From an uncultured Candidatus Saccharibacteria bacterium (GTDB taxonomy: Bacteria > Patescibacteriota > Minisyncoccia > Minisyncoccales > CAYVNG01), in the NCBI GenBank assembly GCA_964452875.1, contig CAYVNG010000003.1:1-49635 (forward strand): DNA of 49,635 bases, given 5' to 3'. A program made the position numbers and the translations under genes. Below the pieces are notes generated by a model. It saw only the letters and a list, made by a program, of their open reading frames with translations. It was not told the origin of the DNA and did no database searches. Each line of letters starts with the position of its first letter. The first letter of the stretch is position 1. Positions 21,752-41,351 of the stretch are shown one piece after another.

Positions 21752-21755
21752 ATCT

Positions 21756-23042: not shown

Positions 23043-23044
23043 TA

Positions 23045-29463: not shown

Positions 29464-30498
29464 ATGGAAAAAAATTGGGAAAAAATGAGGTCAGACAAAA
29501 TCCTCAAAGAAAATTTCATTTCATGCGGCAAAATCATTGATTTAATTCGCGTTTTTTTCAAAGAACAGGGATTTTTTGAAGCACAAACGCCAATTCTGGT
29601 AAGATGCGCCGGACAGGAACCATATCTTTCACCGTTTAAAGTGAACTTTACTAATGAAAAGAACGAAGAATTTCAAGGATTTTTGATAACTTCTCCAGAA
29701 TATTCCCTAAAAAAATTATTAGCGGCCGGTTTCGATAAAATTTTCGAACTGGTTAAAGTTTTCAGATCCAATGAAAGCTTCGGAGGCATACACAACCCCG
29801 AATTCACTATGCTTGAGTGGTACAGGGCAAATTCCGATTATAACCAGATGATGGAGGATATAGAACAACTAATCGTCTTTTTAGCCGAAAAGATAAAGAA
29901 TTCAAGGACCATTTCTTATCAAGGGGGAAAAATAGACCTCACTCCCCCCTGGCCCAGATTGACCGTCAGAAATTTATTCTTAGAATATGCCCGTATCGAT
30001 CTTGATAAGGCTCAAACCGTGGAAGATTTCAAAAAGCAAGCGAAGAATGAAAAATATTCCAAGTTTGACGATTGGAACGATATTTTCTATCTGGTTTTCT
30101 TAAATGAAATAGAACCAAATCTTCCGAAAGACAAGCCTGTTTTCGTCTGCGATTATCCCCTTCCTCAGGCTTCTTTATCGAAAAGGAAAAACGACTTTTA
30201 TGCGGAACGATTTGAAATGTTCATATCTGGAATGGAATTGGCAAACGCATTTTCCGAACTAGTTGATCCCAAAGAGCAATATGTCCGTTTCGAAGAAGAG
30301 CGCGTTCTTAGAAAAAAACTCGGCAAAGATGAAATACCGATTGACAAAGATTTCATTCATGCCTTAGAATTAGGAATTGCGCCGTCGGGCGGCATCGCTC
30401 TAGGAGTAGAGCGTCTTCAAATGCTTTTACTGGACGCAAAGGACATGAACGATATACTGCCCTTTCCGGCGAGTCAATTGTTTTCAGAAAATAAATGA
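29464..30498 (+). CDS. epmA: EF-P lysine-34 lysyltransferase (EpmA/PoxA/GenX-like; LysRS catalytic-core paralog)
   Basis: 344 aa. Class II motifs are present (GFFEAQTPILV; FRSNE...HNPEFTMLEWY; GIALGVERL) and there is no anticodon-binding domain. The gene sits immediately upstream of efp. Confidence 0.78.
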   Translation: MEKNWEKMRSDKILKENFISCGKIIDLIRVFFKEQGFFEAQTPILVRCAGQEPYLSPFKVNFTNEKNEEFQGFLITSPEYSLKKLLAAGFDKIFELVKVFRSNESFGGIHNPEFTMLEWYRANSDYNQMMEDIEQLIVFLAEKIKNSRTISYQGGKIDLTPPWPRLTVRNLFLEYARIDLDKAQTVEDFKKQAKNEKYSKFDDWNDIFYLVFLNEIEPNLPKDKPVFVCDYPLPQASLSKRKNDFYAERFEMFISGMELANAFSELVDPKEQYVRFEEERVLRKKLGKDEIPIDKDFIHALELGIAPSGGIALGVERLQMLLLDAKDMNDILPFPASQLFSENK

Positions 30499-30511
30499 CC
30501 GGAATAATATT

Positions 30512-31075
30512 ATGATTTCAACATCTGATTTTGAAAAAGGGATAATATTGAATATCGACGGCCAACCGTGGTTAATCACCGATTTTTCATATATGAATCC
30601 AGGAAAAGGCGGAGCTGTATACAGGACTAAGCTCAAGAATATCAAATCTGGAAAATTCATAAAAATGACTTTCAAATCGGGAGAGGAATTCGAAACGATG
30701 GAAAAGGAATATAAAAAGGCTATTTATCTGTACAGCGACAGGAGAAATTCGGTTTTTATAACTAATGATACAAAAGAAAGAATTTCTTTTCCTCTTGAAA
30801 ACACGCAAAATAAAATAAAATTCATCACCGGCAACTCCGAAGTGAATTTACTTTATATCGACGGGGAATTACTTTCAGTAGAAATTCCCATAAAAGTCGA
30901 TCTTAAGGTGGTTGAAGTCGAACAATCTATAAAAGGAAGCACAGTGGCCAACTTCATGAAAAAAGCTAAACTGGAAACCGGATTAGAAATTAGCGTACCG
31001 ATGTTTATAGAACAAGGAGATATAGTGCGGTTAAACACCGATTCGGGTGAATATACTGAAAGAGTGAGCAAATGA
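30512..31075 (+). CDS. efp: elongation factor P
   Basis: 187 aa, with the conserved loop YMNPGKGGAVYRTKLKN (Lys at the modified position). Confidence 0.93.
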   Translation: MISTSDFEKGIILNIDGQPWLITDFSYMNPGKGGAVYRTKLKNIKSGKFIKMTFKSGEEFETMEKEYKKAIYLYSDRRNSVFITNDTKERISFPLENTQNKIKFITGNSEVNLLYIDGELLSVEIPIKVDLKVVEVEQSIKGSTVANFMKKAKLETGLEISVPMFIEQGDIVRLNTDSGEYTERVSK

Positions 31076-31100
31076 AAATCCCGGCCTTGGCCGGGATTTT
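31075..31100. terminator. bidirectional terminator between the convergent efp and polyamine operon
   Basis: Sequence aaaatcccggcc-tt-ggccgggatttt. Confidence 0.7.
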
Positions 31101-32179
31101 CATTTACCCCTTTTGAATTCTACTCCTTCATTTTTTAATATGCCGATAATTTTCCTAAAAAGATGCTTTTCTTTCCCAATTTCTTCCATGAGGATAATCC
31201 CTTTCTTTATTTTTATCTCTTCCTTGAGTAAAAAATCCAGAACTGTTGCTGGCATCAAAGAGGTAATTTTTTGCATCGAATTTAATTTATCATTTTTTTT
31301 GGAAAAAATGGAAGCCTGCCAAAAAAAATTCTTTTGGCTTTTCCCGCCAATTTTAACGTAAATCGCGGTTGTGTTGTCGCTTTTTTCCAATGTCAATAAT
31401 TTTTCCGCCTGAGTTATATTCTCTTTTTTGAAAAAAGAATGATTTTTAAGGAATTGAAAAAAGTTGAAGAAGCCCACCGGCCTTATCACCCGGAAGCTAA
31501 GATTTTTGAGGCCGAGACTGTAAGGCAATGTGCTCCATTCGTCGACAAAATAGCTTTCGAAATTTCCCAAACCATCCAGTCTCTGTATTCTATAGCCGGA
31601 GAAAGGAGCCAACCTCATTTTTTCCCCTCGGCTGATCACCGTTGCATGATAAAGATGCTCTTCAATCAAATCGCTGAAAGACCAAGTAAAAGGGAAAAAA
31701 TGATTTTTCTTGACGGAAAGGGTGCCAGCCCCTATTTCAACCTCATCGTCTTTTTTGAAATTCCTCATGCCGAAACCTGCAATGAGATTAGTCAACCCCG
31801 GGGAAACGCCGCAGCCGGGAACCACTTTTATCCCTTTTTCTTCAATCTTTTTTTTATGCTTTAGATAAAAAGAAATCGGAACCACCGAAACGTCTATCAA
31901 ATCTTTTCCGTATTCCAAAGCCAATTCCAAGCCCCGTTTGCCGGATTGTTCCGGCAAGGCTCCGATTAAAAAATCGTATTTTTCTATCACTTGGACCCGT
32001 TCTGAATCAAAGACATCTCCTTTTAAAATTTTCACCCTGCTGGATCCCTTTAAACTATTTGCATCAAGGGAGAACAAGGCAATTTCAGAGATTGCCTTGT
32101 TCTTTTTGAGGTAATGGACTAATGCTCGGCCAATTTTCCCTCCTCCCAAGATTAAGACCTTTTTCCTTATAATCTCCAT
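31100..32179 (-). CDS. saccharopine dehydrogenase-family NAD(P) oxidoreductase (carboxyspermidine-DH/homospermidine-synthase-like context)
   Basis: 359 aa, with the Rossmann motif VLILGGGKIGRAL and the motif GCGVSPGLTNLIAG. It overlaps the end of speE. Confidence 0.6.
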   Translation of the reverse strand: MEIIRKKVLILGGGKIGRALVHYLKKNKAISEIALFSLDANSLKGSSRVKILKGDVFDSERVQVIEKYDFLIGALPEQSGKRGLELALEYGKDLIDVSVVPISFYLKHKKKIEEKGIKVVPGCGVSPGLTNLIAGFGMRNFKKDDEVEIGAGTLSVKKNHFFPFTWSFSDLIEEHLYHATVISRGEKMRLAPFSGYRIQRLDGLGNFESYFVDEWSTLPYSLGLKNLSFRVIRPVGFFNFFQFLKNHSFFKKENITQAEKLLTLEKSDNTTAIYVKIGGKSQKNFFWQASIFSKKNDKLNSMQKITSLMPATVLDFLLKEEIKIKKGIILMEEIGKEKHLFRKIIGILKNEGVEFKRGK

Positions 32180-33042
32180 ATCTCCGGCAGAACTAAGCTG
32201 GCTTTGTGGATTTCGGGAGAATAATATTTGAAACCAAATTTTTTCTGGATTTTTTTGAATCTTTCGCTTATTTTTGAAAAATTTGCTTTCTTCAGATCTA
32301 TTTTTTTCGAACCTCCGACAAAGAAATACTCACCGCAATGGTAAGATGGCATGCAGAATCTGAAAAGAGCGACAAACGGGAAAAACTCTCTTATCTTTTT
32401 AATGATAGGTTTGGCGAGATTATCAAAATCTAAGAAAGAAAATCCGAGAGTGATCATAATCCCGTTTGATTTGATAATTTTTAAAAGCTGTCTGTAAAAT
32501 CCATCCGAATACAAAGAATTTGAAAAGCCGTCAGAATTGAAATTGGTGCAATCTACAATGGCGACGTCGTAGATGTTTTTTTTACCTTTTATGAAGTTCT
32601 GGCCAGAGCAATTAAAAACGTTTACTCTTTTGTCTGAAAACGCGTTTCGGCAGACAAATTTAAGATATTTTTTTGATATTTTTATCACTTCTTTATCCAT
32701 TTCGACCAAATCGACTTTATCCACCGGATGCTTCAAAACTTCCCTCAAGACTCCCCCATCACCTCCTCCAATAATTAAGATTTTCTTTGGATTGGGATGG
32801 GAGAACAAAACGGGATGGGAAATCATCTCATGGTAGATAAATTCGTCTTTTTCGGAAAGTTCCACAATGCCTTCTAGACAAAAAACCCTTCCGTAAATCG
32901 GATTGTCAAAAATCAAAACATCCTGATAGGCTGTCTTGCCGCGAAAAACCAGCTTATCCATCAGAAAACAATGTTTTATTTTCTCAAACCTTTTCCCGGG
33001 AACCTTGTTTTCTGCGAACCATCTTTCTTTAGAGGTAAGCAT
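32167..33042 (-). CDS. speE: polyamine aminopropyltransferase (spermidine synthase family)
   Basis: 291 aa, with motifs YQDVLIFDNPIYGRVFCLEG and ILIIGGGDGGVLREVLKH. Confidence 0.85.
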   Translation of the reverse strand: MLTSKERWFAENKVPGKRFEKIKHCFLMDKLVFRGKTAYQDVLIFDNPIYGRVFCLEGIVELSEKDEFIYHEMISHPVLFSHPNPKKILIIGGGDGGVLREVLKHPVDKVDLVEMDKEVIKISKKYLKFVCRNAFSDKRVNVFNCSGQNFIKGKKNIYDVAIVDCTNFNSDGFSNSLYSDGFYRQLLKIIKSNGIMITLGFSFLDFDNLAKPIIKKIREFFPFVALFRFCMPSYHCGEYFFVGGSKKIDLKKANFSKISERFKKIQKKFGFKYYSPEIHKASLVLPEIWRL

Positions 33043-34183
33043 AAAAAGGTTTTTTGAATTTCACCTCTTTTATTTTCGAAGGCAAATAACTGAAGATGTA
33101 CAGGGAAGCGGCAAGTTTGGGAGATTTTTTGATGACTTCTTCATCGATCATCGACGCCAGTCTTCGAAAAATCTCTTCATCTTCCTTGTAAAGCTTGATA
33201 TAGGGATAAAATATTTTTCCCCTGATCAATTCTTTCGCAATCAAACCGTTTTTTGCGAAAAACTCATGCAGGGACAGAAATCTGTTCCCGATAGATTCCT
33301 CGCCGACCTCCAAAAAAGCCAAACCACCGTCTTTACCGAGCTGATTTAAGCCGAATTTTACGAATCCTTTTACCCCGTCGGCGGTATAAACGGGATTAGC
33401 CAAAAACCCGATGAATTTTCCAACACGGACATCTTTCCTGATGTCGACTTTTTTAGTTTCAATTTTCAAATTAAATTTTTTGGCCAGAAAATCAATCGTC
33501 GCCAAAAGCTGATCGTCGGCATCGATTACGACGCTTTCAAATCCAGGACAGATCAGTCCCATCACTATCGAAATGAAATCATCGTCCCCTACGAACAAAA
33601 ATTTTTTCTTCAGGGGAATCCTTTCTAAAATTTTATGAACCAGAAAAATCGCCGAACCCTGAGAAATGGGCATTTGATCCCATTGGCCTTTTACTTCAAA
33701 ACTCTTGAACTTTTCGAACAGCTTAACCATTGATTCCGAAGAACGGATTTTCACTTTAAGTTTTTCCTCCAGCAGATTTTTGATTTCTTCTTCTGTCAGC
33801 GGTTTTGGTATTATTTCCAATATTTCTTTATTCATATGGGTCACTTTGCCAGTTCTTCCTACTTTTATTAATTTGTTTTTTTCAAGGAAATAAAGGTAAG
33901 GCCAGAGTTTCCAATCTTCAGAGGAGTCCTTGAATATGAAATCGAAAACGTCTTTTGAATATAGAATATATTTCAGATTTTCGAGAAAATTAACGTAAGT
34001 AATCTTATAATACTGATCGTAAAATCTCCCTATTGTCGAATCGGACAACTTCAATTTTTTGAGGCTCGTGGAATTATTCTTGGCATCAAAAATAAAATTA
34101 TTCTTGTAGAAGGTGATGAATTTTTCGTAAATTTCTTCAAGTTTTTTTTCAGTCATGGCCTTATTTTTTATTATGGACGACAC
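33029..34183 (-). CDS. DUF43/BpsA-like aminopropyltransferase (branched-chain polyamine synthase family)
   Basis: 384 aa, with motifs FVGDDDFISIVMGL, VIDADDQLL and FLANPVYTADGVKGFV that resemble the DUF43 signature. Confidence 0.55.
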   Translation of the reverse strand: MSSIIKNKAMTEKKLEEIYEKFITFYKNNFIFDAKNNSTSLKKLKLSDSTIGRFYDQYYKITYVNFLENLKYILYSKDVFDFIFKDSSEDWKLWPYLYFLEKNKLIKVGRTGKVTHMNKEILEIIPKPLTEEEIKNLLEEKLKVKIRSSESMVKLFEKFKSFEVKGQWDQMPISQGSAIFLVHKILERIPLKKKFLFVGDDDFISIVMGLICPGFESVVIDADDQLLATIDFLAKKFNLKIETKKVDIRKDVRVGKFIGFLANPVYTADGVKGFVKFGLNQLGKDGGLAFLEVGEESIGNRFLSLHEFFAKNGLIAKELIRGKIFYPYIKLYKEDEEIFRRLASMIDEEVIKKSPKLAASLYIFSYLPSKIKEVKFKKPFYAYL

Positions 34184-34562
34184 CTCGAATTATTTCTTTC
34201 AATTCGATTTTTTTAGGATTATATTGTTCTTTTAAGTATTCCAAAGCTTTCAAAGGCTTAGCTTTGTCTCCGCAGGTAAAAATATCTATAGCCAAATAAT
34301 TGTATTCCGGCCAAGAATGAATGGAAATATGTGATTCCGCCAACAAAACGACCCCAGTGATTCCCCGAGGATTAAATTTGAAAGTCGAAACTTTTAACGG
34401 ATAACTTCCCGAATTATTTGCGGCGCCAATCAAAATTTTCTTTGTTTCAGCCGTGCTTTCTATTTCTTTTGCACCCCAAAATTCGGCAATCAGATGTATC
34501 CCTGCGTATTTTTTTTTTCTAAGACGGACCCATCGAATGGATCTCTTTGTTTTTAAAATCAT
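34161..34562 (-). CDS. speD: S-adenosylmethionine decarboxylase proenzyme, class 1 (pyruvoyl)
   Basis: 133 aa, with the self-cleavage motif LLAESHISIHSWPE. Confidence 0.85.
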   Translation of the reverse strand: MILKTKRSIRWVRLRKKKYAGIHLIAEFWGAKEIESTAETKKILIGAANNSGSYPLKVSTFKFNPRGITGVVLLAESHISIHSWPEYNYLAIDIFTCGDKAKPLKALEYLKEQYNPKKIELKEIIRGVVHNKK

Positions 34563-34749
34563 CGTTTTAAATCAATCGCTTACCCATAAATCGCTTAAGA
34601 TACGCAAATTCGTTTTGCGAGCCAAGCGCAAGGGCTTCCAATAATTAGGTTCATCACCTAAAAACAAAGAGTAAAAACAAAAAGCGATTGACTATTTATT
34701 TTAAAAGCGCTTATATGGGCTATTATATCACTTTCTAAAATAAATGCAA
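34563..34749 (-). promoter_or_regulatory. speD promoter (TTGCAT-16-TGaTATAAT) plus a ~155-nt leader with alternative pairings
   Basis: -35 at 34744-34749 and -10 at 34722-34727. The leader carries CAATCGCTT (34573-34581), AATCGCTTA x2 and the inverted AAGCGATTG (34682-34690). It also carries a CGCAA/TTGCG/CGCAA triplet (34603-34631). Confidence 0.35.
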
Positions 34750-34765
34750 ATTACCGGTTTTGTTT

Positions 34766-35674
34766 TCATTTATTTTTTACCAAGCTAAAATTATACGCCT
34801 TGTAGATATGTTCCGGATGGAATCTCTTTTTGAAGATGAGAAGCTTTTTATCACTTCCTCCGAAATCCAGTTTTTCAAATCCCGCTTTTTTCGCTTCAAA
34901 AAACATCTCCAAAGACATATATTCCCCTAAGCCGTCGTAATCGTAATCCCTAATGCTGATGCTCGGGTAAAAAGTCCTGGAATTGGGTATTCCCCAGCCG
35001 GCGAACAAGGCCGCCGGTTTTCCATTTATCAAAAACGCCTTGGATAATTCGCATCCGGGAAATCCTGCCTTGATAAATCTCAAGTAAGGTTCGCATTCCA
35101 TTATTTCCTCCCCGTCCTTGTGCTTTTTCCATTTCCAGACAAGGTCTTCCAATCCTTTTTTGTCGGCTTTGACGGCTTCAATCTTTTCTATCTGGTAATG
35201 CTTTGTGAAATAGTTCTTTGACTTCCTCAGCTTCCTCCATTTTTTCCCTTCAAGCTTTTCGTCGAATTTGGCCAGATCATAGACCGGCCACCAGGAAACG
35301 AAGGAAGGGACCGAGGCCTTCCATCCCAAATCCGGCGCCATGCCGAGGATACTTTTTCTCGCTTCCTTCTTGCAATCAAGGAACATTATTTTCGTGATAT
35401 CTTTCCTTCCGGAGATATATTCCATCATCTCTCGCAGGCAGGAAAGCTCTTTGACTTTATCGATAATCGGAGGAAAAGGAATCTTCCAGATGTGATCTTT
35501 AAAAAAAGTCAAAGCTCCCCCTCTGTCTCCGAAATCCAAATACACGGGCTTGTACTCTTCCGGCTGTTCGTCAAAAAAGAGGTAATAGATATTGTGATCC
35601 GGGAAATCCCCGTAATTTTTTAAGTCCAATTCGGCTTTCCGCCGAATTTTATCCTGATCTTCGATAATTTGCAT
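34766..35674 (-). CDS. DUF2156 / MprF C-terminal-domain-like (aminoacyl-tRNA-dependent transferase fold) protein
   Basis: Start trimmed to MQIIEDQ (302 aa). The motifs GKKWRKLRKSKNYFTKHYQIEKIE and LDFGGSDKKLLIFKKRFHPE resemble the LPG_synthase_C family. The assignment is from memory only. Confidence 0.45.
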   Translation of the reverse strand: MQIIEDQDKIRRKAELDLKNYGDFPDHNIYYLFFDEQPEEYKPVYLDFGDRGGALTFFKDHIWKIPFPPIIDKVKELSCLREMMEYISGRKDITKIMFLDCKKEARKSILGMAPDLGWKASVPSFVSWWPVYDLAKFDEKLEGKKWRKLRKSKNYFTKHYQIEKIEAVKADKKGLEDLVWKWKKHKDGEEIMECEPYLRFIKAGFPGCELSKAFLINGKPAALFAGWGIPNSRTFYPSISIRDYDYDGLGEYMSLEMFFEAKKAGFEKLDFGGSDKKLLIFKKRFHPEHIYKAYNFSLVKNK

Positions 35675-35714
35675 ATGTTTCCCTTTCAGACAGAGTTTAC
35701 CAAAAAAAGCCTTT

Positions 35715-35750
35715 TTTCCCAAATACAAAGCCCCGCTTTCAAGCGGGGCG
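35715..35750 (-). terminator. terminator after the PurD-like gene
   Basis: Minus strand reads GCCCCGC-ttgaaa-GCGGGGC followed by TTTGTATTT. Confidence 0.55.
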
Positions 35751-35765
35751 ACATTGAGGTTTTTT

Positions 35766-37064
35766 TCACAAATATCCCCAGTCCCGCAACTTCGCTTCCT
35801 CTGTCTTCCAGTGGTCCCCTATATCCAGCCTGTAAACGGCGTTGGGGATGATTATCCCCTTCATCCTGTCATAAGCGCACTTCTTGGCGGCTTCCATGGT
35901 TTTTCCGCTTCCATTTATGGTCAGAACGTACCCTGAGCCTCCAGTATAGTATTTGCCGTTCTTCTCGTAAGCTTGGGCCATTTTGACGTAAGCCCTGTTT
36001 TTATCGGTTATCCCTAAAATGGGAAGATCTCTTCCATATTTATTGTAAGAGATCTCGTAGGGCATGCCGGCTCCTCCCATTATCACTCCGACGGCGAAAT
36101 TATCGTACGTGTCGAAATGTTTCAAGGTCCCGTCGGCCACCTTTTTCAATATTTCCCCCCAGCTGGTTTTGTGAAGCTCGCCCTGTATGTCAACCTGGGG
36201 ATATCCGAATCTGGCCGTAAAATCAATCGGATAAGCTGCCTCCTTGGTGACGATGCAATTCAGATCTATGAATCCCCGGTAATTGGTCTTTGCTAGATAG
36301 GATTTTATTTTGGAAAGGGTCTCTTTAAAAAGCCTTCCTCCTGTTTCAGAATAATACATTGACGTCCCCATTTCCCCTGTCAACGGACCAAGCCCTCCGG
36401 TCAGAAAATGCTTGTGTTCGAAGCTGACGTTAACAGGCGAAGCGAATTCTTTGCCGTTGAAAAAGGCTCCTGTCGCCATTTCTATGCCGTCTATCAATTC
36501 TTGCAGGATGAAGTCCGCTTTTTGGCTCTTAGGTTGCATGATAAAGTGCAATTTTTTGTCCTTCGACCAGGACTCTTGAAGACTTTCAATCATCTTTATC
36601 AAATCAAACCCATCATCGGATTTACCCAAATAGCAGGTATAGCGCTCGGGCTGTCCTGAAAGTTTTATTACATATTTCTTCGGTCTTTTTTTTATGAATT
36701 CGATCCCTGCCTGGAAATTATTGAAGTGCCATGAAGGAGGGAGCTTCATTCCTGCTTCCCTCATTATTTTCTGGGCAAAAATCCTGTCGTTTTCCAGCCT
36801 GTCACCGAATCTGTTTCCTCCCACGACCAAATATCCTTTTTTCCTAAGGCTTTCAATATCCTCGCCGCAGTTAACGTCGTCAAAAACTATGACGTCAGCC
36901 CAATCTTTGTGGCTCTTCCAGTTATTGACTCTGGGCACAAGATTCCTGGCCACGTCCCGCATTTTCTTGTCGCGAATATAGAACTTTACTTGATGCCCCT
37001 CCATTTGGAGGCTTTGAGCCACTGTGGCGCTTTCTCCGAATATGGTTACAAAAAGAAATTTCAT
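35766..37064 (-). CDS. PurD (glycinamide-ribonucleotide synthetase)-like ATP-grasp ligase, non-canonical N-domain
   Basis: Start trimmed to MKFLFVT. It aligns by eye with E. coli PurD along its length (LENDRIFAQKIM, FEHKHFLTGGLGPLTGEMG, GFIDLNCIV...DFTARFGYPQ, AYDRMKGI...YRLDIG). The N-terminal GNGGREHA motif is absent. Confidence 0.72.
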   Translation of the reverse strand: MKFLFVTIFGESATVAQSLQMEGHQVKFYIRDKKMRDVARNLVPRVNNWKSHKDWADVIVFDDVNCGEDIESLRKKGYLVVGGNRFGDRLENDRIFAQKIMREAGMKLPPSWHFNNFQAGIEFIKKRPKKYVIKLSGQPERYTCYLGKSDDGFDLIKMIESLQESWSKDKKLHFIMQPKSQKADFILQELIDGIEMATGAFFNGKEFASPVNVSFEHKHFLTGGLGPLTGEMGTSMYYSETGGRLFKETLSKIKSYLAKTNYRGFIDLNCIVTKEAAYPIDFTARFGYPQVDIQGELHKTSWGEILKKVADGTLKHFDTYDNFAVGVIMGGAGMPYEISYNKYGRDLPILGITDKNRAYVKMAQAYEKNGKYYTGGSGYVLTINGSGKTMEAAKKCAYDRMKGIIIPNAVYRLDIGDHWKTEEAKLRDWGYL

Positions 37065-37069
37065 TTTTT

Positions 37070-37612
37070 TTAAGGAATGAATACCACGGCGGCCACTACT
37101 GAAGTCCATAGTCCGCCTTTGTCTCCCCTGGCAGTCTGGGTGACGTTTCTGGTATACACAATTTTTTTGCTCATTTTAAAGGCCTGCTTCCTATAGTCCC
37201 AGGCCTGTTCGGGATCGAAGGTCATCCCTAAGGTTGAAGCCAACATTGAAGCAGCCAAATCCTCGGCATAAGGACCGGCCGTGTCAGCGTTTTCTCCGAA
37301 AGAGTGGTATTCGGCTATGTATCCGTAATGCTTTTCTTCGGATGGAATAGCCGCCCCGACCGAAGCTGATATGAGACGATTAGGCTCATCAGTTTCATTT
37401 CTGGATATGACGCAAAAAGTTATTTCTCCAGGGTTCAAAAAAGGGACTCCTTTTTCCATACTCACTTTTTTGCAACGCGGCGGCAGAATGCTTGAAACCT
37501 GAACGATATTAAGATGGGCTATCCTGGCATCCCTCAAAGCGAGCTCAAACGACCTGAGTTTGTCCTTGTGGACCCCCACTCCTTTGGTGAAGAAAAATTT
37601 TTTGGGAACCAT
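37070..37612 (-). CDS. pdaD: pyruvoyl-dependent arginine decarboxylase
   Basis: 180 aa, beginning FFFTKGVGVHKDKLRSFELALRDARIAHLNIVQVSSILPP. Confidence 0.85.
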   Translation of the reverse strand: MVPKKFFFTKGVGVHKDKLRSFELALRDARIAHLNIVQVSSILPPRCKKVSMEKGVPFLNPGEITFCVISRNETDEPNRLISASVGAAIPSEEKHYGYIAEYHSFGENADTAGPYAEDLAASMLASTLGMTFDPEQAWDYRKQAFKMSKKIVYTRNVTQTARGDKGGLWTSVVAAVVFIP

Positions 37613-37623
37613 ATGTTTTATTT

Positions 37624-38010
37624 CTAGGCAGCAGGGCTTGTGCGCATTCCTCTCTTCCGCCCCCCTCGCTCCCTCTTTTCTTTTATTTTATTTTTATATT
37701 CTTTTAATCCGTCTTTCATCTCTTTTTGAACTTCGATGACGGCTTTCCTCACATCTTCTGCTTTTGCTTCCGTTCTCAAAATCTGCCCGGGAAGAGCTAT
37801 CTGGCATTCCGCCCTGAAAAAAGGGCCCTTCTTGTGATGAAGAGTTGTTTTTTCTATTTCCACCGCAGCTTTCAAATGATTGTTTGAGAATCGCGGATCA
37901 GAAGAACGAGAAACTCTCAAATATTTTTCGAGACCGGCGATTTTCTTTTCGACGAAATCCTTCGTCGATCCATCCAATACGATTTTGGTGGCCTTGATTG
38001 AAATTTTCAT
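37624..38010 (-). CDS. hpf: ribosome hibernation factor (HPF/RaiA, short form)
   Basis: 128 aa with the S30AE fold signature (MKISIKATKIVLD...FVEKKIAGLEKYL) and a basic tail. Confidence 0.8.
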   Translation of the reverse strand: MKISIKATKIVLDGSTKDFVEKKIAGLEKYLRVSRSSDPRFSNNHLKAAVEIEKTTLHHKKGPFFRAECQIALPGQILRTEAKAEDVRKAVIEVQKEMKDGLKEYKNKIKEKRERGGRKRGMRTSPAA

Positions 38011-38028
38011 TCCGAAAAAACAGTAATA

Positions 38029-38976
38029 TTATTTTATCTTTTCATTTCCAGGGAAATTGTCAATACTTTTTTTGGTTTCAAAACCCAGAAGAACGATTTC
38101 TTCTTTCAATTCTGTCTTAAATTTGTTTTTTACTTTTCTTTTAACAAGATTGATGAGTTCCAAGACGTCGTTTGCTTTGGCGTTTTTTTTGTTCAGTATA
38201 AAATTGGCATGCTTTTCAGATATTTCAGCTCCTCCCTTACTTTTTCCTTTCAGTTGGCAAGATTCTATCAGCTCTCCGGCTGATTTTTCGCCCGGATTCT
38301 TGAAAACGCTTCCGGCTGAAGGAAAATTCAACGGCTGGCTTTCTTTTTTCATTCTCAAATATTCCTCGGTTCTTTCTTTTATCTTCTTTCTGTCCCCTTT
38401 TTCAAGGCTCAATCTGGCTGAAAGGATTATCAGGTTCCTGTTTTTTTTGAAAATGCTCTCTCTGTAGCTGAAGCGACATTCTTTTCTCTTGAGAACGATC
38501 GTTTTGTTTTTCAAAACGTCCAGAACTTCAATATCAATGACGACGTCCTTCATCGACTTTCCAAAAGAGCCGGCGTTCCCCCTCAAAGATCCTCCCAAGG
38601 TTCCGGGAATAGCTGCTGCCCATTCCAAACCGGTCAAACTCTTCTCTTGCGCCTTCCTTGCCAAATATGATAAAGAAGCTCCTGCTTCAGCAGAAACGAT
38701 TTTCCCGTTTATTTTAATTTTCCCAAAATCCTGTTTTATCACCAGTCCTTTGAACCCTCTGTCGGAAACGAGAATGTTGCTGCCCTTGCCGAGCATGAAA
38801 AAAGGCAGTTTCATCTTCCTGGAAATTGAAACTGCTTTCGCCACGTCTTCTTTCCTTTTGGCTGAAAAAAAATATGCAGCTTTTCCGCCGATCTTGAAGG
38901 AAGTGTATTCGGCTAGAGAAACGTTCTTAGCTAATATCAGAGGCATTTTACTGATGCTGTCTCCCAACTTTTCCAT
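38029..38976 (-). CDS. murB: UDP-N-acetylenolpyruvoylglucosamine reductase
   Basis: 315 aa, with the FAD-binding motifs YTSFKIGGKAAYF and LGKGSNILV and a C-terminal MurB domain. Confidence 0.9.
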   Translation of the reverse strand: MEKLGDSISKMPLILAKNVSLAEYTSFKIGGKAAYFFSAKRKEDVAKAVSISRKMKLPFFMLGKGSNILVSDRGFKGLVIKQDFGKIKINGKIVSAEAGASLSYLARKAQEKSLTGLEWAAAIPGTLGGSLRGNAGSFGKSMKDVVIDIEVLDVLKNKTIVLKRKECRFSYRESIFKKNRNLIILSARLSLEKGDRKKIKERTEEYLRMKKESQPLNFPSAGSVFKNPGEKSAGELIESCQLKGKSKGGAEISEKHANFILNKKNAKANDVLELINLVKRKVKNKFKTELKEEIVLLGFETKKSIDNFPGNEKIK

Positions 38977-39011
38977 GTTATTTAATAATATCCTATCCTG
39001 ACGCTTGTTTC

Positions 39012-39146
39012 AATTTAAAATCCGGCCCTTCTGCCGGGATCCGGATTCTAAAGCGAGCCGGGAGAGTATACTCCAATTCAAAGTCTTGAGTGAGTGCTTG
39101 CCTCCCGACTCAATTCCATATTAACAGAGTATCAAAATATGCACAA
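39012..39146 (-). promoter_or_regulatory. promoter (TTGTGC-17-TAATAT) driving a ~100-nt structured leader or small RNA that ends in a terminator, upstream of murB
   Basis: -10 at 39118-39123. The closing stem GAGUCGGGAG/CUCCCGGCUC spans 39055-39111. The hairpin AAUCCGGAUCCC-ggcagaa-GGGCCGGAUU followed by UUAAAUU spans 39012-39047. Confidence 0.35.
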
Positions 39147-39154
39147 CAACGTCT

Positions 39155-39190
39155 TTTAAAAAACCAACAAGCCCCACTCGAGAGGGGCTT
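39155..39190 (-). terminator. terminator after the O-antigen-ligase-TPR gene
   Basis: Minus strand reads AAGCCCC-tctcgagt-GGGGCTT, then gttgg, then TTTTTT. Confidence 0.6.
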
Positions 39191-39281
39191 ATCGGCGACT
39201 AAGAATCGAGTCTGACCGAAGTCAGATCGCACTCACTATGGTGATAGTATCATAATAATGAAAATTAGTCAAGGTCGATTT

Positions 39282-41351
39282 CTACAGCTGGCCTACGAGG
39301 GACTCGATGCTCGTCGCCCATTCGGGATTTATCTCCAAAGCATTCAAAACTGCTTTTTGAAGCTTTTCCTGGTTGCCGCTGAATTTCAAAACCTGCACCA
39401 GCACCAAGTGGGACCTTTCCGCTTTCTGGTCGAGTTGAAGCGCTTTCTCAGCCAAGGTTACCGCCTCTTCCATTTTCCCTTCGTAAAGCTTTGTCTGGGC
39501 CAAATACCAGTAGCCCTGCTGATTATTGGGGCTCAAGGTGATGGCATCCTTAAAGACTTTTTCCGCTTTAGAAATATAATAAGGGTCGAACCTGATATAG
39601 GTATTGTAAATCGTCCCAAGCTCCAACACCATCCTGTAATCCAAAGGATTTTTCTCGACGATCTTCTCCAATTCCGCCATAAGGAAGCCGAATTCGGCAG
39701 CCACCCTTTCTGCAGGGACGGATTCAATGTCCTGGTAATAGGAGAATTCAATGGTGGAGTTGGCAAAAGACTCGATTATCTGGTCCTGGCCGACGAAAGA
39801 AGTGCTGGCCGTCTTTTCGTACATTTCAAGCCTGCTCTCAGAAAAAGGCTCCTGCTGGCGGGGCAGAATTGCGTAATAGGCTTTTTGGGCCGGAGAAACC
39901 ACGAAATTGGCCAGAGAGAATGCGAGAACGATCAAGAGCAAAGGCAGCAGCCAGAATTTCAATTTTGCTTCACCAGCTTCCTCTTTATTCCCAGAATCAG
40001 AAGAAATGAAAGACAGTATCAAAAAGAACATCAGGTAAGAGCCGATCATGTCGAAAACGGTGAGATTCTGGACGAAGTAAGCGATTAAGGCGACAGAAAA
40101 TATCCCTGCTTTCCAGAAATCTTCCTTCTCTCTGAAGAACTTTTTCCAAAGCAAGTAGAAGGAAGCAGCATATATGCCAAAATACGATATCAATCCCAGA
40201 AGGCCGGTCGTAACCAAGGTGTCGAATACCACGTTATGGGATTTGTCATACCAGATGTCCCCTCCGAAATCTTCTGTAAAAAAGCTGGGGCTGAAATACT
40301 TGGTGAAAGCGATGGAGAAATTCTCGGGCCCCCAGCCCAGCAAAGGCCTTTCCAGAAATCCTTTCCAGGCCATCTCATAAACCGCGAATCTCGGCTTTAT
40401 GGTCGAGGTTCCGAACATTTTTTCCAGATTATCTTCAAGGAAAGCCGGCGAGAAAAAAATCAAGACGACTATCGCCAAAGCACAGACGCAAGACAAGCAG
40501 AGCAGGGATATCCCGGCCTTCCTGACATTCCCTTTGTTGGCGAAAGCCAGCCACAATATCCCCAGCAACGCCAACCCCCCGGCAGCAGAAAGAAAGGCCG
40601 CTCTGGCAGTGCTGAAATACAATACCAAGCCGATCACTCCGACGGAAAGCAAATACAAAAAATTAATTGCCTTGTGGAGCCTGGAACAGATCTTCTGCTT
40701 ATTAGTCTGGAAGAACAGATACAAAGCGATGAAAAAATTGAAAAGGAGATAAGTGCCCAAAAACGAGCTGTTTCCCAAAGTGGCTCCTCCTCTGCCTTTT
40801 TCTACGTTCAGCAGCCCGATCTTATCAAGGGAGCTGGCCAGGCTCTGCGCCGCTCCCGGGAGGGATTGCTGCCCTTCGATGATTTTTTCAAAAATAAACA
40901 GGAAAGAAACCGCCATGGCGGCTGCCACCGAAAAAGAGAAAATCTGGATCCAGTCTTTTTTCTCCCTGAAAGTGGAAGACAAAGTAAGAAAGAAACCGAA
41001 CAGGTGAAACCACATCAAAAGCCCGGTCATCCTTTCGAACCTCGACCAGAAGCTTTCTTCGAAATCAACCCCGAGCACGGAGCTCAAGATGAAAACCGTT
41101 AAAAAAGCCAGAAGAGCGATAACCAGGGAGTTCAAGCGGGGCCTGTATTTTCGGCAGCTCAAAGCCAGGAAAAGATAAGCAGCAAAGGCGATTTCGGCGA
41201 AAGCCATGAACCACAGGCTTTTCGGTCCGACGAAAGGAAAGAGAAATTTGTCGCTGACCACCAACGGGGTGAGCAAGGCTGCGAAGACAGCCAATTTGAT
41301 TATCCAGACGCAGATCTTTTCCGAAAGGTTTTTTTGGTTCATGTCATTCAT
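39282..41351 (-). CDS. O-antigen ligase (Wzy_C)-like polytopic membrane protein fused to C-terminal TPR repeats
   Basis: 689 aa, with at least 10 TM helices in the first ~470 aa and TPR-like repeats in the C-terminal ~200 aa (AEKVFKDAITLSPNNQQGYWYLAQTKLYEGKMEEAV). Confidence 0.72.
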   Translation of the reverse strand: MNDMNQKNLSEKICVWIIKLAVFAALLTPLVVSDKFLFPFVGPKSLWFMAFAEIAFAAYLFLALSCRKYRPRLNSLVIALLAFLTVFILSSVLGVDFEESFWSRFERMTGLLMWFHLFGFFLTLSSTFREKKDWIQIFSFSVAAAMAVSFLFIFEKIIEGQQSLPGAAQSLASSLDKIGLLNVEKGRGGATLGNSSFLGTYLLFNFFIALYLFFQTNKQKICSRLHKAINFLYLLSVGVIGLVLYFSTARAAFLSAAGGLALLGILWLAFANKGNVRKAGISLLCLSCVCALAIVVLIFFSPAFLEDNLEKMFGTSTIKPRFAVYEMAWKGFLERPLLGWGPENFSIAFTKYFSPSFFTEDFGGDIWYDKSHNVVFDTLVTTGLLGLISYFGIYAASFYLLWKKFFREKEDFWKAGIFSVALIAYFVQNLTVFDMIGSYLMFFLILSFISSDSGNKEEAGEAKLKFWLLPLLLIVLAFSLANFVVSPAQKAYYAILPRQQEPFSESRLEMYEKTASTSFVGQDQIIESFANSTIEFSYYQDIESVPAERVAAEFGFLMAELEKIVEKNPLDYRMVLELGTIYNTYIRFDPYYISKAEKVFKDAITLSPNNQQGYWYLAQTKLYEGKMEEAVTLAEKALQLDQKAERSHLVLVQVLKFSGNQEKLQKAVLNALEINPEWATSIESLVGQL

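What the first reader, a model, noticed from the sequence alone, without database searches (positions are those of the whole stretch)
31100..37612. Polyamine cluster that adds a PurD-like ligase and an MprF-C/DUF2156-like transferase to two pyruvoyl decarboxylases and two aminopropyltransferases
Seen in sequence: seven genes lie on one strand, in the order pdaD, PurD-like ATP-grasp, terminator, DUF2156-like, then speD/H, DUF43/BpsA-like, speE and saccharopine-DH-like. Most junctions overlap or are separated by a few nt. No agmatinase or ureohydrolase, no carboxyspermidine decarboxylase and no other purine gene is visible. Established knowledge: PdaD makes agmatine, SpeD makes dcSAM, and SpeE and BpsA families transfer aminopropyl groups. 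Inference: without a ureohydrolase, the products would be aminopropylated agmatine-type or branched polyamines. The two amide-forming enzymes (ATP-grasp and an aminoacyl-transferase fold) could then make an amino-acid-conjugated polyamine. I know of no described pathway with this gene set.
Basis: partly seen in the sequence, partly recalled or inferred. Interest (0 to 1): 0.8.

Follow-up and report, generated by a model that had tools for sequence, protein, structure and literature searches.

The report
Polyamine gene slot with PurD-like ligase
A tiny-genome (Patescibacteria) bacterium carries, in one variable chromosomal slot, a conserved polyamine operon next to a conserved arginine-decarboxylase / PurD-like ligase / tRNA-type transferase module that probably makes amino-acid-linked agmatine compounds by a pathway nobody has described.

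Summary
An independent metagenome assembly shows the same order.

They are not one unit. They are two separately conserved modules in a variable slot between murB-hpf and secA.

- Module 1 is speD, a BpsA-like gene, speE and a lysine-6-dehydrogenase-like gene. It has its own promoter and recurs in at least 12 Patescibacteria genomes without the ligase.
- Module 2 is pdaD plus the PurD-like ATP-grasp gene, usually followed by the soluble MprF-C/FemX-like DUF2156 gene. It recurs without module 1. In other relatives a divergent AdoMetDC-like decarboxylase replaces pdaD, followed by 2-3 tandem ligase copies.

The ligase is not PurD. It lacks GARS_N, the GGRE loop and the RxGDPE glycine/PRA motif. 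It belongs to a very large uncharacterised family that also occurs in archaea and phages.

Best reading, inferred only: agmatine is acylated by the ligase and then aminoacylated by DUF2156. No ureohydrolase lies in the window, but a relative has one in the same slot.

I also found a conserved, covarying pseudoknot-like leader RNA in front of speD that matches no Rfam family.

The parts
37070..37612 (-). pdaD, pyruvoyl-dependent arginine decarboxylase (180 aa). It starts 11 nt after the hpf stop, so it is probably co-transcribed with murB-hpf.
   Evidence: PF01862 E 2e-60; TIGR00286 119.8 against cutoff 107. The self-processing 'VSSILPP' site is visible in the sequence. It is 63-79% identical to pdaD in L007, L009, L202, L204 and L205.
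35766..37064 (-). PurD-paralogue ATP-grasp ligase ('GARS-like', 432 aa, C-terminus WGYL). It carries an 11-residue lineage-specific insertion at about residues 170-180.
   Evidence: GARS_A and GARS_C hits but no GARS_N; purD equivalog 110 against 288. AlphaFold model pLDDT 87.6; Foldseek top hits are all PurD, TM 0.71-0.80 at 17-22% identity. RFGYPQ replaces RxGDPE and the GGRE loop is absent. 1651 homologues found.
35730..35749 (-). Intrinsic-terminator-like hairpin, GCCCCGCTTGAAAGCGGGGC followed by a T-rich tail, directly after the ligase stop.
   Evidence: scan; sequence read.
34766..35674 (-). Soluble DUF2156 / LPG_synthase_C protein (302 aa). Tandem-GNAT fold of the aminoacyl-tRNA-transferase type, with no membrane domain.
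   Evidence: PF09924 47.1 bits. AlphaFold pLDDT 91.2. Foldseek: MprF/aaPGS C-domains E about 1e-16 with TM 0.67, soluble 2HQY, then the aa-tRNA-dependent peptide synthases Sbb17/Sba18 and FemX at E about 1e-11. The subfamily holds only 15 clusters.
34722..34750 (-). Sigma-70-like promoter (TTTGCA, 17 nt, TG-TATAAT) in front of the speD operon.
34527..34691 (-). Conserved structured leader of speD. Its parts are: stem a 34691-34682 paired with a' 34581-34572; a U-run; b 34671-34660 paired with b' 34554-34543 (codons 4-7 of speD); and a hairpin at 34543-34527. SD and AUG (34562) sit between a' and b'.
   Evidence: Alignments A7 and A8 of 21 Patescibacteria instances. 96.9% of cells are paired; 7 of 10 a:a' pairs show compensatory changes; 0 of 500 shuffles reach the observed values; slid controls give 46-56%. 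No Rfam match at E<=1.
34161..34562 (-). speD/speH, class 1b pyruvoyl S-adenosylmethionine decarboxylase (133 aa).
   Evidence: PF02675 E 2.6e-33; TIGR03330 124.8 against 75.7. Canonical 'AESHISIHSWPE' processing motif.
33029..34156 (-). BpsA_C (DUF43)-family aminopropyltransferase-like protein (375 aa) with a GDDD motif. It belongs to a distinct subfamily with a conserved N-terminal domain.
   Evidence: PF01861 73 bits. Characterised BpsA (5XNC) matches only at E 7.5e-6. 46 representatives at E<1e-30 among 1.84 billion proteins. GDDD is invariant in alignment A6.
32167..33042 (-). speE-type aminopropyltransferase (291 aa) with an atypical acceptor loop, DCTNFNSDG, in place of D-S/T-S/T-D-P.
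   Evidence: NF002010 267 against 260. PDB spermidine synthases match at E about 1e-49. The loop variant is shared with L188-L191, L196-L198 and L211.
31100..32179 (-). Saccharopine-dehydrogenase-family NAD(P) enzyme (359 aa). Its closest solved relative is the L-lysine 6-dehydrogenase PH1688.
   Evidence: PF03435 and PF16653. 3ABI matches at E 4.9e-28, while CASDH-type 4INA matches only at E 3e-3. 3ABI is identified as lysine 6-dehydrogenase in PMC10413350.

Best explanation
The stretch is a polyamine island in a Patescibacteria chromosome. It is built from two modules that relatives carry separately in the same murB-hpf ... secA slot.

Module 1 (speD, BpsA-like, speE, lysine-dehydrogenase-like) has its own promoter and a structured leader RNA. 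It makes decarboxylated SAM and transfers aminopropyl groups onto an amine acceptor. Here that acceptor is most simply the agmatine made by PdaD. The products would be N1-aminopropylagmatine-type and longer or branched polyamines. These enzyme activities are inferred from family membership only.

Module 2 is pdaD translationally coupled to a PurD paralogue, followed by DUF2156.
- PdaD makes agmatine.
- The ATP-grasp ligase keeps the ATP/Mg machinery of PurD but has lost PurD's phosphoribosylamine and glycine contacts. It would activate a carboxylate, most likely an amino acid, as an acyl phosphate and join it to the primary amine of agmatine or a derivative.
- The soluble MprF-C/FemX-like protein would then add an aminoacyl group from an aminoacyl-tRNA.
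- The result would be an aminoacyl- or peptidyl-agmatine conjugate.
- Relatives with 2-3 tandem ligase copies would add more residues.

Shown here: gene families, folds, motif loss, synteny and co-occurrence. Inferred: every substrate and product.
For: 1. The families and folds are as stated.
2. In all 9 Patescibacteria-clade ligase lineages with upstream sequence available, the ligase directly follows a pyruvoyl decarboxylase.
   - PdaD precedes it in the window, L007, L009, L171 and L180.
   - A divergent AdoMetDC-like gene precedes it in L011, L177, L178 and L257, often with 4-nt overlaps.
3. One archaeal homologue (L002) sits beside speD and speE.
4. DUF2156 lies within 2.5 kb of a ligase gene in about 11 of 16 lineages, including Woesearchaeota.
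5. The slot is a polyamine hot spot. Relatives place speD, bps, speE, sacDH, pdaD, a deoxyhypusine-synthase-like gene, an arginase-family gene and an FMN reductase there.
6. The PurD glycine and PRA ligands are changed. Human D295, E297, R13 and E14, and Aquifex E292, correspond to Tyr, Gln/Thr and a missing GGRE loop. The ATP/Mg residues and R285 are kept.
7. There are precedents. PylC-type ATP-grasp ligases acylate alkylamines, and PylC appears in the fold list. The aa-tRNA-dependent enzymes Sbb17/Sba18 acylate a small-molecule amine. The E-64 pathway uses an ATP-grasp enzyme on the route to an agmatine amide (PMC12568646).
8. N1-aminopropylagmatine is what SpeE makes when agmatinase is missing (PMC12749970).
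Against: - There is no biochemical evidence for any step.
- The broad ligase family (about 40% identity; more than 583 hits in the species-representative genome collection) is mostly a lone gene. No neighbour is conserved across 80 cellular loci, and 222 phage contigs carry it with no polyamine genes nearby. The family's general substrate therefore need not be agmatine.
- L180 has pdaD and the ligase but no DUF2156. Five DUF2156 lineages have no ligase nearby.
- A terminator-like hairpin separates the ligase from DUF2156 in the window.
- In Woesearchaeota the ligase-DUF2156 pair sits next to a SET-domain gene, not a decarboxylase. That would fit a protein-lysine target equally well.
- Module 1 is conserved without module 2, so the two need not share intermediates.
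Confidence: 0.4

Rival explanations
1. Macromolecule or envelope modification. The ligase and the Fem/MprF-like transferase decorate a polymer or lipid: a peptidoglycan stem peptide or cross-bridge, a membrane lipid head group, or a protein lysine or carboxylate. Agmatine would be the attached amine, or would be unrelated.
For: - ATP-grasp ligases and Fem-type aa-tRNA transferases are the two enzyme classes known, from established knowledge, to build peptidoglycan side chains.
- The best fold matches of DUF2156 are the lipid-aminoacylating MprF domains and FemX.
- In Woesearchaeota the ligase-DUF2156 pair sits beside a SET-domain (lysine methyltransferase-like) gene and a FemAB-like GNAT.
- In phages the ligase gene follows a roughly 1000-aa internal-virion-type protein with lytic transglycosylase or peptidase-like sequence.
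- murB is nearby.
Against: - DUF2156 has no membrane or flippase domain.
- murB adjacency says little, because the plain polyamine operon occupies the same slot in relatives.
- The tight coupling to a small-molecule decarboxylase in 9 of 9 lineages argues that the amine is a free metabolite.
- The archaea that carry the pair lack murein.
Confidence: 0.22
2. Coincidental neighbours. The PurD-like ligase has a general function unrelated to polyamines, as in the many genomes and phages where it is a lone gene. It and DUF2156 merely landed in a recombination-prone slot beside polyamine genes.
For: - The slot is highly variable.
- The broad family has no conserved neighbour.
- GC content differs between the two halves: 0.43-0.47 for pdaD, ligase and DUF2156, against 0.35-0.39 for speD through epmA.
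Against: - The ligase overlaps or abuts a decarboxylase in every clade member.
- Four of those lineages use a different decarboxylase family. In the two whose neighbours were annotated (L177, L178), the genes lie at a different genomic location, next to CTP_transf_like and FBPase genes rather than murB/secA.
- An archaeal copy sits beside speD/speE.
Repeated independent linkage of this kind is hard to get by chance.
Confidence: 0.2
3. The ligase is a genuine but divergent glycinamide ribonucleotide synthetase serving purine synthesis or salvage.
For: Its only family hits and fold matches are PurD, and sources annotate homologues as phosphoribosylamine-glycine ligase.
Against: - The purD equivalog model scores 110 against a cutoff of 288.
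- There is no GARS_N hit and no GGRE loop.
- The RxGDPE motif Asp and Glu, which bind glycine and PRA, are replaced.
- No other purine gene lies in the window.
- The family co-exists with canonical PurD-bearing phyla and occurs in about 40-kb phages.
- Brown et al. 2011 rejected similar 'extra PurD-like' proteins on the same criteria (PMC3261824).
Confidence: 0.02

Closest known systems
PurD / glycinamide ribonucleotide synthetase (EC 6.3.4.13)
   Same: Four-domain ATP-grasp fold (TM up to 0.80). Conserved ATP/Mg residues and the Arg of the RxG motif. The presumed acyl-phosphate chemistry joins a carboxylate to an amine.
   Different: 17-22% identity. No GARS_N profile hit. The GGRE loop is absent. 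RxGDPE is replaced by RFGYP(Q/T). The B-loop GLAAGK is replaced. There is an extra C-terminal helix ending in WGYL. There is no purine context, and the family is present in phages and in purine-auxotrophic lineages.
ATP-grasp ligases that acylate alkylamines or polyamines (PylC, glutathionylspermidine synthetase, the E-64 pathway ATP-grasp)
   Same: They are chemical precedents for ATP-dependent amide formation on a lysine-like, agmatine or polyamine amine. PylC appears among the fold matches.
   Different: They belong to different ATP-grasp subfamilies. There is no sequence-level relationship beyond the superfamily, and no evidence that substrates are shared.
MprF C-terminal domain / aminoacyl-phosphatidylglycerol synthases, with FemX, Sbb17/Sba18 and VlmA-type aa-tRNA-dependent transferases
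   Same: The Pfam LPG_synthase_C hit is above threshold. Tandem-GNAT fold, with Foldseek E about 1e-16 to MprF and about 1e-11 to FemX and Sbb17.
   Different: 12-16% identity. It is a stand-alone soluble 302-aa protein without a flippase domain. It belongs to a tiny subfamily restricted to Patescibacteria and DPANN archaea. Donor and acceptor are unknown.
Agmatine-based spermidine and long/branched polyamine pathway of Thermus thermophilus and Thermococcus kodakarensis (arginine decarboxylase, SAM decarboxylase, agmatine aminopropyltransferase, aminopropylagmatine ureohydrolase, BpsA)
   Same: The set PdaD, SpeD, SpeE-type and BpsA_C-type enzymes is shared. The GDDD motif is present.
   Different: - No ureohydrolase lies in the window.
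- The BpsA-like protein is only remotely similar to characterised BpsA.
- SpeE has an Asn where the loop Asp normally sits.
- There is an extra lysine-dehydrogenase-like gene.
- The organism is a Patescibacteria member with no evidence here of thermophily.
L-lysine 6-dehydrogenase (PH1688, 3ABI) and carboxyspermidine dehydrogenase
   Same: Saccharopine-dehydrogenase fold enzymes that act on terminal amines of lysine or polyamines.
   Different: The window protein is much closer to the lysine-dehydrogenase type (E 5e-28) than to the CASDH type (E 3e-3). No carboxyspermidine decarboxylase partner is present.
SAM-II / SAM-V pseudoknot riboswitches (for the speD leader only)
   Same: Crossing helices that bracket the ribosome-binding site. 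A U-rich first loop faces an A-rich strand. The leader is placed before a SAM-consuming gene.
   Different: There is no Rfam match. The stems are much longer (10-12 bp). One or two inserted hairpins are present. One strand lies inside the coding region. No ligand is known, so this is a resemblance only.

Membership tests
PurD (GAR synthetase) | Scores above the curated equivalog cutoff (TIGR00877) | tested here: not met
   110.5 bits against a cutoff of 288.
PurD (GAR synthetase) | R[LF]GDPE motif (PS00184), whose Asp and Glu bind glycine and the PRA amine | tested here: not met
   The window has RFGYPQ and the family consensus is RFGYPT. Residue roles are taken from PMC8880213 and PMC2978367.
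PurD (GAR synthetase) | GARS_N domain with the GGRE(H)A loop (Arg13/Glu14 in human GARS) | tested here: not met
   No GARS_N hit. The aligned segment reads IFGES or xxGLxxD.
PurD (GAR synthetase) | N-B-A-C ATP-grasp architecture | tested here: met
   Foldseek TM 0.71-0.80 to 15 PurD structures.
PurD (GAR synthetase) | Formation of GAR from PRA, glycine and ATP | not testable with these tools
   Needs an enzyme assay or purD complementation.
MprF-C / aminoacyl-PG synthase (LPG_synthase_C, DUF2156) | Pfam PF09924 above the gathering score, and a tandem-GNAT fold | tested here: met
   47.1 against 27.5 bits. Foldseek E 2.5e-16 and TM 0.67 to 9GOE, 4V35 and 5VRV.
MprF-C / aminoacyl-PG synthase (LPG_synthase_C, DUF2156) | Fusion to, or partnership with, a membrane flippase domain, and a lipid acceptor | tested here: not met
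   It is a 302-aa stand-alone protein. All 15 subfamily members are 295-321 aa.
MprF-C / aminoacyl-PG synthase (LPG_synthase_C, DUF2156) | Aminoacyl-tRNA as the acyl donor | not testable with these tools
   Needs an RNase-sensitive transfer assay.
PdaD (pyruvoyl arginine decarboxylase) | Equivalog score and the Ser-Ser self-processing site | tested here: met
   TIGR00286 119.8 against 107. NF009064 scores 195 against 207, just below its cutoff. 'VSSILPP' is present.
Class 1b SAM decarboxylase (SpeD/SpeH) | Equivalog score and the Glu-Ser processing motif followed by HxWPE | tested here: met
   TIGR03330 124.8 against 75.7. 'AESHISIHSWPE' is present.
SpeE aminopropyltransferase | Equivalog score and the GGGDGG dcSAM loop | tested here: met
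   NF002010 267 against 260. The GGGDGG loop is present.
SpeE aminopropyltransferase | Acceptor-loop motif D-(S/T)-(S/T)-D-P | tested here: not met
   The window reads DCTNF. The same Asn is found in 9 related operons. Other relatives (L180, L192, L194) keep D-x-T-D-P, and L184-L186 read DSNDP.
BpsA (branched-chain polyamine synthase) | BpsA_C domain with a GDDD motif | tested here: met
   73 bits against 27. GDDD is invariant in alignment A6. The motif's role is taken from PMC12979288.
BpsA (branched-chain polyamine synthase) | C-terminal acidic carrier cluster, and N4-aminopropylation of spermidine | tested here: inconclusive
   Acidic patches (EDEE, DEE) exist near the C-terminus, but similarity to Tk-BpsA is only E 7.5e-6. 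The product is not testable here.
Carboxy(nor)spermidine dehydrogenase | Closest similarity to CASDH, with a partner decarboxylase | tested here: not met
   The best PDB match is the lysine 6-dehydrogenase 3ABI (E 5e-28). 4INA matches at E 3e-3. No Orn/DAP/Arg-decarboxylase-type gene lies in the window.
SAM-II / SAM-V riboswitch (speD leader) | Match to the Rfam covariance model | tested here: not met
   No hit in 31000-39500 at E<=1.

The most novel reading that the evidence does not exclude
The PurD-like proteins would be a new, very widespread class of ATP-grasp amine-carboxylate (polyamine or agmatine - amino acid) ligases, present in bacteria, archaea and phages. In Patescibacteria and DPANN archaea they would work in series with a soluble aminoacyl-tRNA-dependent transferase. 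Together they would assemble peptidyl-agmatine metabolites without ribosomes or NRPS. The neighbouring speD operon would be governed by a previously unknown pseudoknot riboswitch class.
Probability: 0.25. Interest if true: 0.85.

Novelty: new variant of a known kind. Interest (0 to 1): 0.66.

Why it matters
Patescibacteria and DPANN archaea have minimal genomes and depend on hosts, so every conserved biosynthetic module they keep is likely to matter for that lifestyle.

This analysis gives the first functional lead for a large PurD-paralogue family. The family has more than 1,600 protein clusters and also occurs in over 200 phage contigs. It is currently mis-annotated as a purine enzyme.

If the module makes amino-acid-agmatine conjugates, it would be a new route to polyamine-derived metabolites. 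It would also be a new use of aminoacyl-tRNA outside translation.

The conserved speD-bps-speE-dehydrogenase operon shows that BpsA-type enzymes are not confined to thermophiles.

The covarying leader RNA is a testable candidate for a new regulatory RNA class controlling polyamine synthesis.

Tried and rejected
- PHROGs and PADLOC scans of the ligase, DUF2156, PdaD and a phage homologue gave no hit. I therefore found no support for a known phage function or defence system.
- An Rfam gathering scan of the whole window found only RNase P RNA and a tRNA. The permissive scan of 31000-39500 gave only sub-threshold chance hits.
- Sequence search of the PDB with DUF2156 found nothing. Only the fold search was informative.
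- I clustered the neighbours of 80 cellular and 80 viral ligase loci to look for a universal partner. No cellular partner emerged. A 14-locus cluster was an antisense-ORF artefact, a 15-locus cluster had no consistent position relative to the ligase gene, and a 302-aa protein directly downstream occurs in only 4 loci.
- Eight literature searches found no paper describing this family or gene set. The only mention was 'extra PurD-like' proteins in haloarchaea. The LUZ24-like phage 'ATP-grasp' genes are a different 291-aa family.
- My first reading was that the polyamine operon was inserted into a trio-bearing backbone, based on GC content and L007 synteny. I revised it after one search showed that the operon, and in L186 also efp-epmA, is the widespread occupant of the slot.
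- I considered the genuine-PurD hypothesis and rejected it on motif and score evidence.
- I considered a CASDH role for the dehydrogenase and set it aside, because it is closer to lysine 6-dehydrogenase and has no decarboxylase partner.

Full report
**1. What is there**

Seven minus-strand ORFs fill 31100-37612.
- PdaD.
- A protein with GARS_A and GARS_C hits.
- LPG_synthase_C (DUF2156).
- AdoMet_dc.
- BpsA_C (DUF43).
- Spermine_synth.
- Sacchrp_dh.

Homologue lengths and an independent gene call move three starts. The ligase starts at 37064, DUF2156 at 35674, and the BpsA-like gene at 34156.

The cluster falls into three transcription-like blocks.
- pdaD starts 11 nt after hpf and is followed 5 nt later by the ligase. 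The ligase ends at a strong terminator-like hairpin (35749-35730).
- DUF2156 stands alone.
- After a 203-nt gap with a good promoter-like site (34750-34722), speD, bps, speE and the dehydrogenase follow, with a 4-nt gap or 13-14-nt overlaps between them.

The rest of the window is typical Patescibacteria housekeeping. It includes DnaE, ThrRS, MiaB, MiaA, LepA, MurJ, RNase P RNA, PGK, SecDF, SecA, EpmA-like, EF-P, HPF, MurB, Wzy-TPR and sugar-modifying enzymes. It holds no arginase-family, carboxyspermidine-decarboxylase or purine gene.

An independently assembled 9.5-kb JGI contig shows the identical seven-gene order (L264).

**2. The cluster is a union of two modules in a variable slot**

The window is collinear with relative L007: transketolase ... 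Wzy, MurB, HPF, PdaD, ligase, DUF2156, SecA, SecDF, sigma-like, DUF8128, TrwB-like, PGK. L007 lacks the six genes from speD to epmA. Those six genes are also lower in GC, 0.35-0.39 against 0.43-0.48.

I searched with an alignment of the BpsA-like protein. The operon speD-bps-speE-dehydrogenase occupies the same MurB-HPF ... SecA slot in at least 12 Patescibacteria genomes. These include Paceibacterota, two complete Nealsonbacteria genomes, and MAGs labelled Saccharibacteria. None of them has pdaD, the ligase or DUF2156 there. L186 even shows MurB-speD-bps-speE-dehydrogenase-efp-epmA-SecA, which is the window minus the trio.

Other relatives fill the slot differently:
- speD-speE-bps.
- speD-bps only.
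- speD-bps-(FMN reductase)-pdaD (L202, L205).
- pdaD-(deoxyhypusine-synthase-like)-(arginase family)-speD-bps (L204).
- pdaD-ligase-unknown-speD-speE (L180).

The slot is therefore a polyamine hot spot, and the window carries the fullest combination seen among about 45 related loci.

**3. The ligase is a PurD paralogue, not PurD**

It scores 110 bits against the 288-bit purD cutoff and has no GARS_N hit. Its model (pLDDT 87.6) superposes on PurD structures with TM up to 0.80 at about 20% identity.

I aligned it to Aquifex PurD and to a genuine PurD found by chance in L218.
- The ATP/Mg residues and the motif Arg are conserved.
- RxGDPE has become RFGYP(Q/T).
- The N-terminal GGRE loop is gone, and the B-loop differs.

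In PurD those lost residues hold glycine and the PRA amine and ribose (PMC8880213, PMC2978367). Brown et al. rejected haloarchaeal 'extra PurD-like' proteins on the same grounds (PMC3261824).

The family is very large. It has 1651 hits in the protein collection and more than 583 hits in the species-representative genome collection, spanning Acidobacteriota, Gemmatimonadales, Proteobacteria, Omnitrophota, DPANN, Thaumarchaeota and Patescibacteria. It also has 222 hits in viral contigs. It is strongly conserved, with 70 invariant positions in 19 diverse members. In at least three lineages it carries an intein-like insertion next to the GPxTGEMGT loop (P0004, L180, L173/L258).

Outside the Patescibacteria clade it is essentially a lone gene. 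In phages it sits at the end of the structural module, after a roughly 1000-aa internal-virion-type protein.

**4. The ligase is linked to decarboxylases and to DUF2156**

Within the Patescibacteria clade (55-79% identity to the window), every locus with upstream sequence has a pyruvoyl decarboxylase immediately before the ligase.
- PdaD precedes it in the window, L007, L009, L171 and L180.
- A divergent AdoMetDC-like protein precedes it in L011, L177, L178 and L257. This protein has 'ESSLVSGHF' or 'FSHISVHTF' and lacks the canonical HxWPE.
- In those four lineages the ligase is duplicated 2-3 times in tandem, with 4-nt overlaps. In L177 and L257 the last copy runs straight into DUF2156.
- The AdoMetDC-type loci with annotated neighbours (L177, L178) lie elsewhere in the genome, so the link does not come only from the murB-secA slot.
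- An archaeal homologue (L002) is flanked by speD and speE.

The DUF2156 subfamily is tiny: 15 clusters, 6 species in the genome collection, and 10 metagenome loci. It lies within 2.5 kb of a ligase gene in about 11 of 16 lineages. These include Woesearchaeota, where the ligase is followed directly by DUF2156 (L173/L258). Five lineages lack the ligase nearby (L174, L181, L183, L262, L263).

The DUF2156 model (pLDDT 91) matches MprF/aaPGS C-domains best. The next matches are a soluble Bacteroides DUF2156 protein, the aa-tRNA-dependent peptide synthases Sbb17/Sba18 bound to the small-molecule amine streptothrisamine, and FemX. It has no membrane domain.

**5. Mechanism proposed**

PdaD supplies agmatine. 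The ligase forms an acyl phosphate from a carboxylate and couples it to the agmatine primary amine. The carboxylate is probably an amino acid: E216 and R285 remain, while the pocket residues that restrict PurD to glycine are gone. DUF2156 then aminoacylates the product from an aminoacyl-tRNA. Lineages with several ligase copies would add several residues.

The speD operon independently aminopropylates agmatine or imported amines. Without a ureohydrolase the expected products are N1-aminopropylagmatine-type compounds, as shown for SpeE in agmatinase mutants (PMC12749970).

All substrates are inferred. I put 0.4 on this reading. I put 0.22 on a macromolecular or envelope target, which gains weight from the SET-domain and FemAB-like neighbours in Woesearchaeota and from the phage context. 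I put 0.2 on unrelated co-location and 0.02 on a true PurD. The remainder is left unassigned.

**6. Module 1 details**

The BpsA-like protein keeps the GDDD motif but is only remotely similar to characterised BpsA (E 7.5e-6). It belongs to a compact subfamily of 46 representatives at E<1e-30, found in Patescibacteria and a few DPANN and Nitrososphaeria genomes. A 2026 review of branched polyamines does not mention such organisms (PMC12979288).

The window's SpeE and nine orthologues in the four-gene operon carry Asn in place of the last Asp of the D-S/T-S/T-D-P acceptor loop. SpeE in the speD-speE-type loci keeps the Asp. This suggests an unusual acceptor.

The dehydrogenase is closest to the lysine 6-dehydrogenase PH1688, not to CASDH. 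Its role is open; it may act as a terminal-amine dehydrogenase on a polyamine.

**7. Unexpected: a structured leader before speD**

The gap upstream of speD holds a conserved RNA in 21 distinct Patescibacteria loci. Its elements, in order, are:
- Stem strand a (UCAAUCGCUU).
- A U-run.
- Strand b (CUCUUUGUUUUU).
- One or two variable hairpins.
- Strand a' (AAGCGAUUGA).
- SD and AUG.
- Strand b' (AAAAACAAAGAG, the K-T-K-R codons).
- A small hairpin.

The a:a' and b:b' pairings cross. They therefore form an H-type pseudoknot, or else alternative helices, around the translation start.

On the trimmed alignment 96.9% of cells pair. Seven of ten a:a' pairs show compensatory changes. No shuffle out of 500 reaches the observed values, and slid controls drop to 46-56%. 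The b:b' helix is almost invariant, with one compensatory pair that accompanies an Arg-to-Gly codon change.

Two caveats apply. I derived the structure from these same sequences. One strand of b:b' is coding, so its conservation is partly protein-driven.

No Rfam family matches. The element occurs only before speD in all loci held.

**8. Novelty and verdict**

I found no description of the ligase family, the trio or the Patescibacteria operon in the searchable literature.

The parts belong to known enzyme kinds. The combination, and the repurposed PurD paralogue, are new variants. The finding is real and more interesting than a routine polyamine operon, but the seven-gene 'pathway' is a juxtaposition and its chemistry is unproven.

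Noticed in passing
window 34527-34691 (minus strand); also L180, L184-L190, L192-L197, L199, L200, L202, L204, L205, L211: A conserved leader RNA lies in front of speD. It has two crossing long-range helices (a:a' and b:b') that bracket SD and AUG, a U-rich loop, variable internal hairpins and a small hairpin in codons 7-12. The a:a' helix covaries strongly. There is no Rfam match. It is a candidate new riboswitch-like or polyamine/SAM-responsive translational element.
   Followed up: partly
window 32167-33042 (SpeE residues about 159-172); L188-L191, L196-L198, L211: SpeE in the four-gene operon has DCTN(F/P/L) where aminopropyltransferases normally have D-S/T-S/T-D-P. The loop Asp is replaced by Asn in ten loci. 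SpeE in L180, L192 and L194 keeps the canonical loop.
   Followed up: partly
L091-L170 (IMG/VR viral contigs): 222 viral contigs encode a 27-38% identical homologue of the PurD-like ligase. It usually lies directly after a roughly 1000-aa internal-virion-type protein (SLT or peptidase-like sequence) and faces the primase/polymerase module. There is no PHROG family for it.
   Followed up: partly
L180 7141-9375; L173 1387-3660; L258 4571-6889; protein P0004: Several ligase homologues carry an insertion of about 1 kb (300 aa), with a faint LAGLIDADG hit, next to the invariant GPxTGEMGT loop. It looks like an intein, which would mark that loop as functionally critical.
   Followed up: no
L258 4091-4513; L024 9309-9725 and 9864-10772; L185 10971-11507: SET-domain genes sit next to the ligase-DUF2156 pair in two Woesearchaeota loci, one of which also has a FemAB-like GNAT. 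Another SET-domain gene lies directly after the dehydrogenase of the polyamine operon in one Patescibacteria locus. This link is unexplained.
   Followed up: no
L204 5060-9128: A relative fills the same slot with pdaD, a deoxyhypusine-synthase-like gene, an arginase-family gene, speD and bps. This gene set resembles the agmatine-coupling/homospermidine route reported for Thermus (PMC10981699).
   Followed up: partly
L177 1373-6480; L178 2364-7376; L011 1793-7974; L257 4058-7903: A divergent AdoMetDC-like pyruvoyl enzyme, lacking the HxWPE motif, is followed by two or three tandem ligase paralogues (59-84% identical to each other), with DUF2156 adjacent or up to 2.3 kb downstream. The decarboxylase substrate is unknown.
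   Followed up: partly
window 29464-31075 (plus strand); L186 11033-12631: An EpmA-like lysyl-tRNA-synthetase paralogue and EF-P (loop PGKGGA) lie convergent to the polyamine operon, inside the low-GC block. The same pair follows the operon in L186.
   Followed up: no
L188 11107-11919; L189 11132-12271: Other occupants of the slot after the dehydrogenase are a SAM hydroxide adenosyltransferase (SAM_HAT) gene and a radical-SAM/SPASM gene.
   Followed up: no
window 36525-36557 (ligase residues about 170-180): The window's ligase has an 11-residue insertion (DKKLHFIMQPKSQ region) that is absent from all homologues aligned and is modelled with pLDDT below 50.
   Followed up: no
window 20036-23246 and 23045-24073: A TrwB/TraG-type coupling-protein-like gene with a zinc finger lies next to a 496-aa ORF (21756-23246) that had no Pfam hit here but is syntenic with the DUF8128 gene of L007, and next to a sigma70_r4/HARE-HTH protein. 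This block is conserved in synteny with L007.
   Followed up: no
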